Shown here piece by piece: positions 9,461 to 10,113 of a DNA stretch of 64,000 bases. Every line of letters begins with the position of its first letter. Within the stretch, counting starts at the first letter, position 1. A program made the position numbers and the translations under genes. The stretch is from NCBI RefSeq assembly GCF_058153355.1, contig NZ_CM177019.1, one strand, 5' to 3'. The notes beneath the pieces were generated by a model. The model did no database searches, was not told the DNA's origin, and saw only the letters and a list, made by a program, of their open reading frames with translations.

Positions 9461-10113
9461 ATAAAAATCACCCAAAAAAACGATAACCCACTGTACTCCC
9501 TGTGCTTTATAAACATAAAGTCACAACACATTCTATATTCATATTAATTAATGGCGCATTGAAAAAAATCATATTATTCTTAACTCAAATCCATTAGCTA
9601 AATAAGCTTATATTCTTCACTCACAACCGTAACAAAAATAATATTATCGAAAGTTAAAGTTGGGACTATCAAATTTCGCTCATTTCAAACATACATTGTG
9701 ATTTTTGCAATCATCTTAATCTTAGGGCCTATCATCATATGTTAAAATTTTGTCAATAATAGAAAAGAATCTTGGTCACCTATCATGCGTTATAAATGTG
9801 CAACTGGCTTCCTGCAGATGCTCTTAACTTCTACAGCAGGATTTATACCAGCGTTTCAGAACTATCATATTTACCTTAAATGATCATTTCAGTCTTATAA
9901 CACGCTCAGCCTCACAAATGGTTTACACTGTCTATTGTTTGGGTAATTTAAGTAAGTCAGCTACGATCAACCTTGAATGGGGAGCCAGCAATGGACTTAA
10001 GCCTAATCGGGTCTTCAGATTGTTTCAGAATTGTATAAAAAACAATGTATTAAATAATCTGATTGTTTTTGGTCATAGTGTGACGCAGAAAGCAAGCCAA
10101 TAAGGAAATGATT

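What the first reader, a model, noticed from the sequence alone, without database searches (positions are those of the whole stretch)
9461..10107. Long AT-rich non-coding leader upstream of the novel ORF, shared with the ybjP promoter
About 650 bp of very AT-rich DNA with no convincing ORF separates the novel gene start from ybjP. AT-rich tracts like this are typical H-NS-silenced promoter regions of acquired genes and may carry regulatory sites or a small RNA. It also displaces the native ybjP promoter from ybjQ.
Basis: inference. Interest (0 to 1): 0.3.

Follow-up and report, generated by a model that had tools for sequence, protein, structure and literature searches.

The report
Replacement ybjP promoter inside acquired island
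The AT-rich gap is real and has two parts: the third next to ybjP is a conserved stretch of acquired DNA that now supplies the promoter and long leader of the core gene ybjP, and the rest is fast-evolving spacer upstream of an Escherichia-only pentapeptide-repeat gene, which is a useful but ordinary case of regulatory rewiring.

Summary
Bases 9461-10113 are a 653-bp intergenic region at 33% GC, in a window that averages 51% GC. It contains no convincing gene.

The region belongs to a ~2.5-kb insertion (about 7578-10102) in the 5' UTR of ybjP. The insertion is not strain-specific: 1123 of 5426 complete E. coli genomes carry it, including O157:H7 (ECs_0949/ECs_0950).

The interval has two parts:
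- **9461-9785** is hypervariable: 76% identical between the two main alleles and up to 11% divergent within E. coli.
- **9786-10071** is conserved: 92% identical between alleles and 1-2% divergent within E. coli.

Published Cappable-seq data for EDL933 place the ybjP transcription starts 177, 179 and 208 nt upstream of the ATG, against 56 nt in K-12. These map to window positions 9937, 9935 and 9906, inside the invariant core of the conserved block.

The native ybjP promoter is left beside ybjQ, 2.5 kb away, with its -10 mutated.

I found no support for a small RNA: no Rfam hit, no terminator, no covariation. A 61-aa ORF at 9918-10103 is probably not a gene. H-NS silencing of the pentapeptide gene is plausible but was not tested; no transcription start was listed for that gene in EDL933.

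Interest is low to moderate.

The parts
7482..7535 (.). ybjQ-proximal half of the ancestral ybjQ-ybjP intergenic region, retained
   Evidence: It aligns to K-12 up to 7535. It contains a promoter-like site, TTCCCA-17-GATAAT, at 7549->7521 on the minus strand. That site is compatible with the EDL933 ybjQ start 34 nt upstream of the ATG.
7536..7577 (+). Degenerate remnant of the native ybjP promoter and 5' UTR, ending in the left copy of the Shine-Dalgarno repeat AGGAAATCAT (7568-7577)
   Evidence: A gapped alignment to the K-12 intergenic region shows about 29 nt deleted. The K-12 -10, CTATTAT, reads CCATGTT here. The 10-nt match to K-12 scored at or above only 38 of 2000 shuffles.
7578..10102 (.). 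Inserted AT-rich island of about 2.5 kb, absent from K-12 and from the matching site in 80 species-representative loci of Enterobacteriaceae
   Evidence: establish the insertion and its absence elsewhere. GC content is 32.8%. It was not found on plasmids or phages.
7694..9460 (-). Pentapeptide-repeat ORF of 589 aa counted from the ATG. It is an Escherichia/Shigella-restricted orphan, intact here and a pseudogene in O157:H7 and many other strains
   Evidence: ORF and weak Pentapeptide_4 hit. Relatives. Only one full-length cluster among 1.84 billion representative proteins. Pseudogene annotations.
9461..9785 (.). Hypervariable left part of the gap at 28.6% GC. It is the upstream region of the pentapeptide gene
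   Evidence: It is 76.2% identical between the two main alleles and carries 54 segregating sites in 330 columns within the E. coli allele family.
9643..9672 (-). Candidate promoter of the pentapeptide gene, TTGATA-18-GATAAT. This is a prediction only
   Evidence: It is the best minus-strand match in both scans. In the nine-allele alignment both hexamers are unchanged while the 18-nt spacer between them carries substitutions. Its score is not above shuffled sequence, and no transcription start is listed there in EDL933.
9786..10071 (+). Conserved block: the ybjP upstream region, core promoters and most of the long 5' UTR
   Evidence: It is 92.3% identical between alleles, against 76.2% for the left part (Fisher p = 5e-8) and 81.3% for the ORF (p = 1e-6). 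It has 9 segregating sites in 286 columns within E. coli. An IS1-mediated deletion in strain CUWW06 retains it from position 9780.
9895..9906 (+). Distal ybjP promoter: -10 TTATAA/TATAAC (9895-9901) and the start equivalent to EDL933 1033043, 208 nt upstream of the ATG (9906)
   Evidence: EDL933 start positions. Mapping to window coordinates. TATAACACGCTCA is invariant in 9 alleles.
9924..9937 (+). Main ybjP promoter: -10 TACACT (9924-9929) and starts equivalent to EDL933 1033014 and 1033012, 179 and 177 nt upstream of the ATG (9935, 9937)
   Evidence: It lies inside a 39-nt invariant run, 9915-9953. No good -35 hexamer is present (my reading of the sequence; PWM scan).
9878..9889 (.). Perfect 12-bp palindrome AAATGATCATTT with a central GATC, inside a 39-nt invariant run (9854-9892)
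   Evidence: Sequence read directly; invariance. About 0.3 such palindromes are expected by chance in this interval (my estimate), so it is not significant on its own.
9918..10103 (+). 61-aa ORF whose TAA stop overlaps the ybjP Shine-Dalgarno sequence. Probably not a gene
   Evidence: It is open in 8 of 9 alleles and has no Shine-Dalgarno sequence. Relatives occur only at this locus. Its pN/pS of 0.23-0.41 is matched by frames full of stop codons. The main ybjP starts lie inside it. It is absent from two translatome gene lists. A former RefSeq CDS, RS04965, has been dropped.
10015..10062 (+). AU-rich hairpin within the ybjP 5' UTR
   Evidence: Predicted. The arms are invariant, so covariation cannot be tested. 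The T-run that follows it in this window is disrupted in the other alleles, so it is not a conserved terminator.
10103..10112 (+). Right copy of the repeat, AGGAAATGAT, which is the ybjP Shine-Dalgarno region. It matches 7568-7577 at 9 of 10 positions
10114..10629 (+). ybjP lipoprotein gene. Its first ~300 bp form an island-linked allele
   Evidence: NCBIfam PRK10533, 325 bits. Positions 10100-10400 are 88-100% identical per 50-nt bin between island-bearing haplotypes (all bins but one at 96% or above) but only 66-90% identical to K-12.

Best explanation
A ~2.5-kb AT-rich island was inserted into the 5' UTR of ybjP, just upstream of its start codon. It is flanked by a 10-bp repeat of the Shine-Dalgarno region. 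The insertion stranded the native ybjP promoter next to ybjQ.

(1) Positions 9786-10113 now act as the promoter region and the 177-208-nt 5' UTR of ybjP. Transcription starts at about 9935/9937, from a -10 TACACT with no good -35, and at about 9906, from a -10 TATAAC. This part is kept nearly unchanged because a conserved core gene depends on it.

(2) Positions 9461-9785 are fast-evolving AT-rich DNA upstream of the pentapeptide-repeat gene. They probably hold that gene's own promoter (candidate TTGATA-18-GATAAT, predicted start near 9636). That promoter appears silent under laboratory conditions and is most likely covered by H-NS.

What is shown: the insertion, the two-part conservation pattern, and the transcription starts in the homologous O157:H7 sequence. 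What is inferred: that the same starts are used in this strain, that selection causes the conservation, the promoter of the pentapeptide gene, and H-NS involvement.
For: **The insertion and the ancestral state.** K-12 aligns up to 7535 and again from 10100. The ybjQ-ybjP spacer is about 100-125 bp in nearly all of 80 species-representative loci, and nothing in them resembles the island.

**Transcription starts.** Table S5 of PMC10469882 (Cappable-seq, EDL933, 8 conditions) lists ybjP starts at 1033012, 1033014 and 1033043. These are 177, 179 and 208 nt upstream of the ATG, against 56 nt in MG1655. The coordinates were checked against NZ_CP008957.1. They map without gaps to window positions 9937, 9935 and 9906.

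**Conservation.** The starts and their -10 elements sit in 13-39-nt runs that are invariant in 9 alleles. The block is 92.3% identical between alleles, against 76.2% for the left part (p = 5e-8). Within E. coli the figures are 0-2% against up to 11.5% divergence.

**Loss of the native promoter.** The native -10 is mutated and about 29 nt are deleted at the left junction.

**ybjP is expressed in an island-bearing strain.** YbjP (Z1095) was detected in an O157:H7 proteome.

**A natural deletion.** An IS1-mediated deletion in strain CUWW06 removes 7706-9779 and keeps the block from 9780.

**The pentapeptide gene looks silent.** No gene-specific start is listed for the pentapeptide-gene fragments in EDL933.
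Against: - The transcription starts come from the O157:H7 allele, which is 92% identical over the last 330 nt, not from this strain.
- Neither start has a convincing -35, and σ70-like scores in the gap are no better than in shuffled sequence.
- The lower divergence of the block could partly reflect recombination spreading in from ybjP, whose first 100 bp are identical between lineages that differ by about 6% elsewhere.
- The supplementary tables were truncated when stored, so the absence of a listed start for the pentapeptide gene is weak evidence.
- H-NS binding was not tested, and the high-affinity motif is not enriched.
Confidence: 0.7

Rival explanations
1. The whole 650 bp is one H-NS-silenced promoter and long leader of the pentapeptide gene. 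For example, transcription would start near 9857 from the minus-strand site CTGAAA-17-TATGAT and give a ~400-nt 5' UTR. On this view the ybjP starts are incidental initiation in AT-rich DNA.
For: A promoter-like site scoring 9 of 12 lies at 9892->9864 on the minus strand, inside the invariant run. AT-rich acquired DNA is known to hold many spurious promoters that H-NS suppresses (PMC3923964, abstract seen).
Against: No minus-strand (pentapeptide-gene direction) start is listed anywhere in the gap in EDL933 under 8 conditions. The plus-strand starts recur across conditions and are the only starts assigned to ybjP, whose protein is made in O157:H7. The pentapeptide gene is a pseudogene in most carriers, yet the block stays conserved.
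Confidence: 0.1
2. The conserved block has no function of its own. Its low divergence comes from homologous recombination or hitch-hiking with the adjacent core gene ybjP, and the sharp edge near 9786 is a recombination breakpoint between exchangeable 'cassette' alleles.
For: The ybjP 5' end is 98-100% identical between lineages whose core genes differ by about 6%. The left part falls into discrete allele classes that differ by 8-11%.
Against: The block is not identical between lineages: it has 22 differences in 286 bp, as expected for old, constrained DNA rather than a recent transfer. The same rate contrast appears at both deep and shallow divergence. The most invariant runs coincide with the mapped starts and -10 elements.
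Confidence: 0.12
3. The block encodes a real 61-aa protein, or a regulatory upstream ORF (9918-10103) translationally coupled to ybjP. Its stop codon lies 10 nt before the ybjP ATG.
For: The frame is open for 91 codons in 36%-GC DNA and is kept open in 8 of 9 alleles. Between alleles there are 8 synonymous and 7 non-synonymous changes, giving pN/pS of 0.23. The distal start at 9906 lies 12 nt upstream of its ATG. It was once annotated as a hypothetical protein.
Against: - It has no Shine-Dalgarno sequence.
- It has no relatives outside this locus among 5.8 billion proteins.
- One allele carries a nonsense codon.
- Similar pN/pS values occur in frames with 8-13 stop codons.
- The main ybjP starts lie 17-19 nt inside it.
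- It is absent from the Sakai and EDL933 translatome lists.
- It has been dropped from the current RefSeq annotation.
Confidence: 0.06
4. The gap encodes a small regulatory RNA.
For: The block is conserved and non-coding. An AU-rich hairpin followed by a T-run lies at 10015-10070 in this window.
Against: - No Rfam match appears even at E <= 1.
- No terminator-like site was found.
- The T-run is broken in the other alleles.
- Folding z-scores are -0.28, +0.80 and -0.62.
- None of 61 predicted pairs shows a compensatory change.
- All mapped starts are assigned to ybjP.
Confidence: 0.03

Closest known systems
Xenogeneic (H-NS-type) silencing of AT-rich horizontally acquired islands in Enterobacteriaceae
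   Same: The segment is acquired and sits at 33% GC in a 51% GC background. The orphan gene has no detectable transcription start under laboratory conditions, and promoter-like hexamers are as dense as in shuffled AT-rich sequence.
   Different: H-NS occupancy and derepression were not tested here. The high-affinity nucleation motif is not enriched. Part of the island is actively transcribed towards ybjP.
Promoter replacement or capture by inserted DNA, as when an insertion sequence supplies an outward-reading promoter to a neighbouring gene
   Same: An insertion between a core gene and its promoter supplies new transcription starts from inside the inserted DNA.
   Different: The island has no transposase and no terminal inverted repeats. 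The new promoters lie 177-208 nt from the ATG, within ordinary island sequence. The arrangement is old and fixed in about a fifth of sequenced E. coli.
K-12 ybjP promoter, reported as RpoS-dependent (Lacour and Landini 2004, as cited in bioRxiv 10.1101/2025.03.19.644130)
   Same: It drives the same gene. Both -10 elements resemble the σS-preferred form: K-12 CTATTAT and island TACACT (the σS reading rests on my own knowledge).
   Different: The DNA is unrelated, and the 5' UTR is 177-208 nt rather than 56 nt. In EDL933 the start 177 nt upstream is seen in exponential-phase LB and M9. RpoS dependence of the new promoter is unknown.
Pentapeptide-repeat type III effectors (PipB, PipB2) and Qnr proteins, considered for the neighbouring gene
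   Same: It has a pentapeptide-repeat segment at residues ~355-459. One public source names a homologue 'putative type III effector'.
   Different: It does not match the PipB, PipB2 or Qnr NCBIfam models; the only hit is 25 bits to HalA against a cut-off of 250. Among 1.84 billion representative proteins the only relatives beyond generic repeat matches are fragments of the same gene.

Membership tests
H-NS-silenced xenogeneic promoter region | AT content well above the genome average over several hundred bp | tested here: met
   GC is 32.9% against 50.7%. It is the only segment of the 64-kb window at 36% GC or below.
H-NS-silenced xenogeneic promoter region | Horizontally acquired relative to the ancestral locus | tested here: met
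   It is absent from K-12 and from 80 species-representative loci, where the spacer is 100-125 bp in nearly all.
H-NS-silenced xenogeneic promoter region | H-NS occupancy (ChIP) and derepression in an hns mutant | not testable with these tools
   I found no dataset covering this locus. The ChAP-seq study PMC4720273 used strains SE11, SE15 and K-12 only.
H-NS-silenced xenogeneic promoter region | High-affinity nucleation motif (TCGATAAATT-like) | tested here: inconclusive
   One 2-mismatch site lies in the gap (9641-9650) and one 1-mismatch site in the ORF (8245-8254). This is not more than elsewhere in the window. The motif is not required for H-NS binding.
H-NS-silenced xenogeneic promoter region | The downstream acquired gene is transcriptionally silent under standard conditions | tested here: inconclusive
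   No gene-specific start is listed for EDL933_RS04970 in 8 conditions. However, the tables were truncated when stored, and the gene is a pseudogene in that strain.
Promoter plus 5' UTR of ybjP | Experimentally mapped transcription start upstream of the gene | tested here: met
   Cappable-seq starts lie 177, 179 and 208 nt upstream of the ATG in EDL933. They map without gaps to 9937, 9935 and 9906. This is by homology, not measured in this strain.
Promoter plus 5' UTR of ybjP | A -10 element 5-8 nt upstream of the start | tested here: met
   TACACT at 9924-9929 and TATAAC/TTATAA at 9895-9901.
Promoter plus 5' UTR of ybjP | A -35 element at 16-18 nt spacing | tested here: not met
   No hexamer matches TTGACA at more than 3 of 6 positions at the right spacing (my reading; PWM scan). 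This is compatible with a σS-dependent or activator-dependent promoter.
Promoter plus 5' UTR of ybjP | Sequence constraint relative to neighbouring non-coding DNA | tested here: met
   92.3% against 76.2% identity, p = 5e-8. Segregating sites are 9 of 286 against 54 of 330.
Small regulatory RNA gene | Own transcription start plus an intrinsic terminator defining a short transcript | tested here: not met
   No terminator-like site was found. The T-run after the hairpin is not conserved. All starts are assigned to ybjP.
Small regulatory RNA gene | Membership of a described RNA family, or a conserved structure | tested here: not met
   No Rfam hit in the gap at E <= 1. Folding z-scores range from -0.62 to +0.80. 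No compensatory pairs.
Small protein-coding gene (61-aa ORF 9918-10103) | Reading frame kept open across alleles | tested here: inconclusive
   It is open in 8 of 9 alleles. L010 has a stop at codon 13.
Small protein-coding gene (61-aa ORF 9918-10103) | Ribosome-binding site, homologues elsewhere, and evidence of translation | tested here: not met
   It has no Shine-Dalgarno sequence. Homologues occur only at this locus. It is not in the Sakai or EDL933 translatome lists held as text.
Small protein-coding gene (61-aa ORF 9918-10103) | Frame-specific purifying selection | tested here: inconclusive
   pN/pS is 0.23-0.41, but frames full of stop codons give 0.30-0.51.
Transposable or integrative element | Flanking target-site duplication | tested here: inconclusive
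   A 10-bp repeat matching at 9 of 10 positions, AGGAAATCAT and AGGAAATGAT, lies at 7568-7577 and 10103-10112. The match of each copy to K-12 is modestly significant.
Transposable or integrative element | Terminal inverted repeats, or a transposase or integrase | tested here: not met
   There are no terminal inverted repeats. The single ORF has only a pentapeptide-repeat match.

The most novel reading that the evidence does not exclude
The island has switched the regulation of YbjP, recently reported as a lipoprotein partner of TolC. Control would move from the RpoS-dependent K-12 promoter to new island-borne promoters that fire in exponential phase. These promoters sit next to an invariant GATC-centred palindrome. 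The distal transcript would carry a 61-codon upstream ORF that ends on the ybjP Shine-Dalgarno sequence. Together with the island-linked N-terminal YbjP allele, this would give a fifth of E. coli strains, including O157:H7, a differently regulated and differently built TolC accessory protein.
Probability: 0.15. Interest if true: 0.5.

Novelty: new member of a known kind. Interest (0 to 1): 0.3.

Why it matters
This locus shows how a core gene can come to depend on acquired DNA for its transcription. Two things follow.

First, that part of an otherwise decaying island is preserved even where the island's own gene is a pseudogene.

Second, comparisons of ybjP expression between K-12 and island-bearing strains such as O157:H7 are comparisons between unrelated promoters and leaders.

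YbjP has recently been reported to bind TolC (bioRxiv 10.1101/2025.03.19.644130), so strain differences in its regulation and in its N-terminal sequence may be worth knowing about.

As a genome-scan finding it is otherwise ordinary: there is no new gene, no new RNA and no new mechanism.

Tried and rejected
**Small RNA.** The Rfam search at E <= 1 gave no hit in the gap. The only match was a chance-level CRISPR-DR53 hit downstream of ybjP. I found no terminator, no unusual folding stability and no covariation.

**Hidden gene or pseudogene remnant.**
- Six-frame translation and Pfam gave nothing.
- A search of 5.8 billion proteins with the extended 91-aa frame found only same-locus E. coli and Shigella hypotheticals.
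- The 32-aa ORF at 9785 loses its ATG in the common alleles.

**The block as an ancestral ybjP upstream region lost in K-12.** Rejected. None of the 80 loci from other species carries it.

**Plasmid or phage origin of the island.** No phage match. The only 'plasmid' matches are chromosome-sized records (4.9 Mb) or a 730-kb E. coli record filed as plasmids.

**Relatives of the pentapeptide protein in other genera, to compare their upstream regions.** None exist among 1.84 billion representative proteins.

**Promoter prediction from sequence alone.** Uninformative. The best scores were 7.7-8.4, against a mean best score of 8.7 in shuffled sequence.

**Extended 40-nt flanking duplication of the ybjP 5' UTR.** Under stricter scoring only the 10-14-nt Shine-Dalgarno segment is supported.

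**Literature searches.** Searches for ECs0949, ECs0950, Z1096 and Z1097 and for H-NS data at this locus found nothing usable. The PNAS Sakai dRNA-seq supplements are not held, and Lacour and Landini 2004 is not held.

Full report
**1. The observation**

The window is Escherichia chromosome. The gene order is ybjS, amiD, ybjQ (7158-7481, minus strand), an AT-rich segment, ybjP (10114-10629, plus strand), then artPIQM.

The pentapeptide-repeat ORF starts at the ATG at 9460 on the minus strand, and ybjP starts at 10114. The gap is therefore 9461-10113, 653 bp.

GC content is 32.9%, against 50.7% for the whole window. Only 2.5% of 647-nt windows are as low. The only stretch of the 64 kb at or below 36% GC is 7450-10208.

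No ORF in the gap exceeds 61 aa, and none has a Pfam match.

**2. The setting: an insertion into the ybjP 5' UTR**

K-12 has only 125 bp between ybjQ and ybjP. It aligns with the window up to 7535 and again from 10100.

I recovered 80 loci, one per species of Enterobacteriaceae, using YbjP as the query. The spacer is about 100-125 bp in nearly all of them. None contains anything similar to the island. The short spacer is therefore ancestral.

The left junction (7536-7577) looks like a decayed copy of the rest of the K-12 spacer and ends in AGGAAATCAT. That sequence is the ybjP Shine-Dalgarno region, and it recurs as AGGAAATGAT at 10103-10112. The island therefore sits just upstream of the ybjP start codon, flanked by a 10-bp repeat matching at 9 of 10 positions.

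The island has no terminal inverted repeats and no transposase or integrase. It was not found on plasmids or phages.

**3. The island is not novel**

The island is present in 1123 of 5426 complete E. coli genomes. These include O157:H7 Sakai (ECs_0949/ECs_0950) and EDL933, O55:H7 and O145:H28.

There are two main alleles. Eighteen genomes match the window at 95% or better (16 of them at ≥99%), and 1108 genomes match at 83-85%.

The window's core genes are only about 94% identical to both K-12 and Sakai. The window therefore comes from a divergent Escherichia lineage, and the two alleles reflect an old split.

The ORF is intact here at 589 aa. It is split or frameshifted in O157:H7 and many other strains.

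Among 1.84 billion representative proteins the ORF has one full-length cluster (E. coli and Shigella), fragments of itself, and a few generic pentapeptide-repeat matches. It is an Escherichia-restricted orphan. It does not match the PipB, PipB2 or Qnr models.

**4. The gap has two parts**

| Region | Identity between the two main alleles |
|---|---|
| ORF 7694-9460 | 81.3% |
| 9461-9785 | 76.2% |
| 9786-10071 | 92.3% |

The block 9786-10071 differs significantly from the left part (Fisher p = 5e-8) and from the ORF (p = 1e-6).

Within E. coli proper the left part differs by up to 11.5% between sub-alleles, while the block differs by 0-2%. Segregating sites number 54 of 330 against 9 of 286.

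Two 39-nt runs, 9854-9892 and 9915-9953, are invariant in all nine alleles examined.

**5. What the conserved block does**

Supplementary Table S5 of PMC10469882 reports Cappable-seq of EDL933 under eight growth conditions. For ybjP (EDL933_RS04960, 1032320-1032835, minus strand) it lists these starts:

| EDL933 position | Conditions in which it was seen |
|---|---|
| 1033012 | exponential LB, M9 and salt; stationary salt |
| 1033014 | stationary LB and acid |
| 1033043 | exponential salt; stationary M9 and salt |

These lie 177, 179 and 208 nt upstream of the ATG. The same table gives 56 nt for MG1655.

I checked the coordinates against NZ_CP008957.1. There are no alignment gaps between 9792 and 10113, so the starts correspond to window positions 9937, 9935 and 9906.

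They are preceded by TACACT (9924-9929) and TATAAC/TTATAA (9895-9901) at normal distances. All of these elements lie inside invariant runs. Neither start has a good -35.

The K-12 start 56 nt upstream of the ATG places the native -10 (CTATTAT) exactly at the left junction. There the window reads CCATGTT, and about 29 nt are missing. The native promoter has therefore been left beside ybjQ, 2.5 kb from ybjP, and has decayed. ybjP is now transcribed from inside the island.

Two further observations fit this reading:
- YbjP protein (Z1095) was detected in an O157:H7 proteome.
- In strain CUWW06, an IS1-mediated deletion removed the ORF and the left part of the gap (equivalent to 7706-9779) and kept the block from 9780. 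This is a single case.

**6. The left part of the gap**

The left part contains a short conserved stretch around 9636-9685. There the best minus-strand promoter-like site, TTGATA-18-GATAAT, keeps both hexamers unchanged in all nine alleles while its spacer varies. This is my candidate for the pentapeptide gene's promoter. The predicted start is near 9636, which would give a 5' UTR of about 175 nt.

It remains a prediction. Scores are no better than in shuffled sequence. No start for the gene is listed in EDL933, although those tables were truncated when stored and the gene is a pseudogene in that strain.

H-NS silencing is the natural explanation for an AT-rich acquired gene with no detectable start, but I could not test it. 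The high-affinity motif is not enriched, and I found no ChIP or hns-mutant data for this locus.

**7. Alternatives examined**

*A small RNA.* There is no Rfam match, no terminator, no unusual folding energy and no compensatory base-pair change. An AU-rich hairpin at 10015-10062 is followed by a T-run only in this allele.

*A small protein.* The 61-aa ORF (9918-10103) is open in 8 of 9 alleles and shows 8 synonymous against 7 non-synonymous changes. Several points count against it:
- Frames full of stop codons give similar pN/pS ratios.
- It has no Shine-Dalgarno sequence.
- It has no relatives outside this locus.
- The main ybjP starts lie inside it.
- Two translatome studies do not list it.
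- RefSeq has withdrawn the former RS04965 CDS.

*Conservation through recombination rather than constraint.* This cannot be excluded. It fits poorly with the 22 old differences in the block and with the invariant runs coinciding with the mapped promoter elements.

**8. Comparison with what is known, and verdict**

The arrangement works like promoter replacement by inserted DNA, next to an acquired gene that is probably silenced by H-NS. It is a new documented instance of known kinds of event, not a new mechanism.

- Right: AT-rich acquired non-coding DNA, the presence of regulatory sites, and displacement of the native ybjP promoter.
- Unsupported: a small RNA.
- Untested: H-NS.
- Mistaken: treating the gap as one uniform leader of a 'novel' gene.

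Interest: 0.3.

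Noticed in passing
window 1-7500, 10500-13700 and 15027-19691: Core genes across the window are only about 92-95% identical to both K-12 MG1655 and O157:H7 Sakai. In the first search, 16 RefSeq 'E. coli' genomes matched the 7300-10300 segment at 99% or better. The window therefore seems to come from a divergent, cryptic-clade-like Escherichia lineage.
   Followed up: partly
window 10100-10400 (5' part of ybjP): The first ~300 bp of ybjP form an island-linked allele. Per 50-nt bin they are 88-100% identical between island-bearing lineages (all bins but one at 96% or above), but only 66-90% identical to K-12, E. albertii and Salmonella. This gives 14 amino-acid changes, all in the first 90 residues (92% protein identity overall). 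YbjP was recently reported as a TolC partner lipoprotein.
   Followed up: partly
window 13725-15026: A ~1.3-kb insertion in the artM-artJ spacer, absent from K-12 and Sakai. It carries a 326-aa IS110-family RNA-guided transposase (NCBIfam NF033542, 253 bits) at 13854-14834 on the minus strand. Its non-coding ends, where a bridge RNA might lie, were not examined.
   Followed up: partly
L016, L017, L018, L022, L027 (Citrobacter spp.), between ybjQ and ybjP: The same ybjQ-ybjP spacer holds unrelated insertions of 1.1-3.2 kb and lower GC in several Citrobacter species. L018 carries a QnrB-family pentapeptide-repeat gene (473 bits against a cut-off of 460). L016 and L017 carry an AppA-type phytase and a CspA-like gene. 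The site looks like a recurrent insertion hot spot.
   Followed up: partly
L005 (E. coli CUWW06) 3238-4004; equivalent to window 7706-9779: An IS1 element replaces the whole pentapeptide ORF and the hypervariable part of the gap. It leaves the conserved block intact from the equivalent of 9780, within a few bases of the conservation boundary.
   Followed up: yes
window 9854-9892: A 39-nt run invariant in 9 alleles begins and ends with TTTCAG. It contains a perfect 12-bp palindrome, AAATGATCATTT, with a central GATC (Dam site), about 50 nt upstream of the main ybjP start. It could be a regulator binding site. By chance about 0.3 such palindromes are expected in the gap.
   Followed up: no
window 7515-7600: In EDL933, ybjQ has starts 34 and 78 nt upstream of its ATG (K-12: 76 nt). 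The start 78 nt upstream maps to about 7559, so its promoter would lie in the first bases of the island's left end. ybjQ regulation may therefore also be affected by the insertion.
   Followed up: no
window 10659-10695 (minus strand): A weak Rfam match to CRISPR-DR53 (25 bits against a gathering score of 45, E = 0.13) lies in the ybjP-artP spacer. It is most likely a chance hit on a GC-rich palindromic repeat or terminator.
   Followed up: no
window 7694-9460: The pentapeptide-repeat ORF evolves fast: 73% protein identity and 81% DNA identity between alleles, with differences at codon positions 1, 2 and 3 of 100, 68 and 159. It is intact here but broken in O157:H7 and many other carriers. One public source labels a homologue 'putative type III effector', but no effector family model matches it.
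   Followed up: partly
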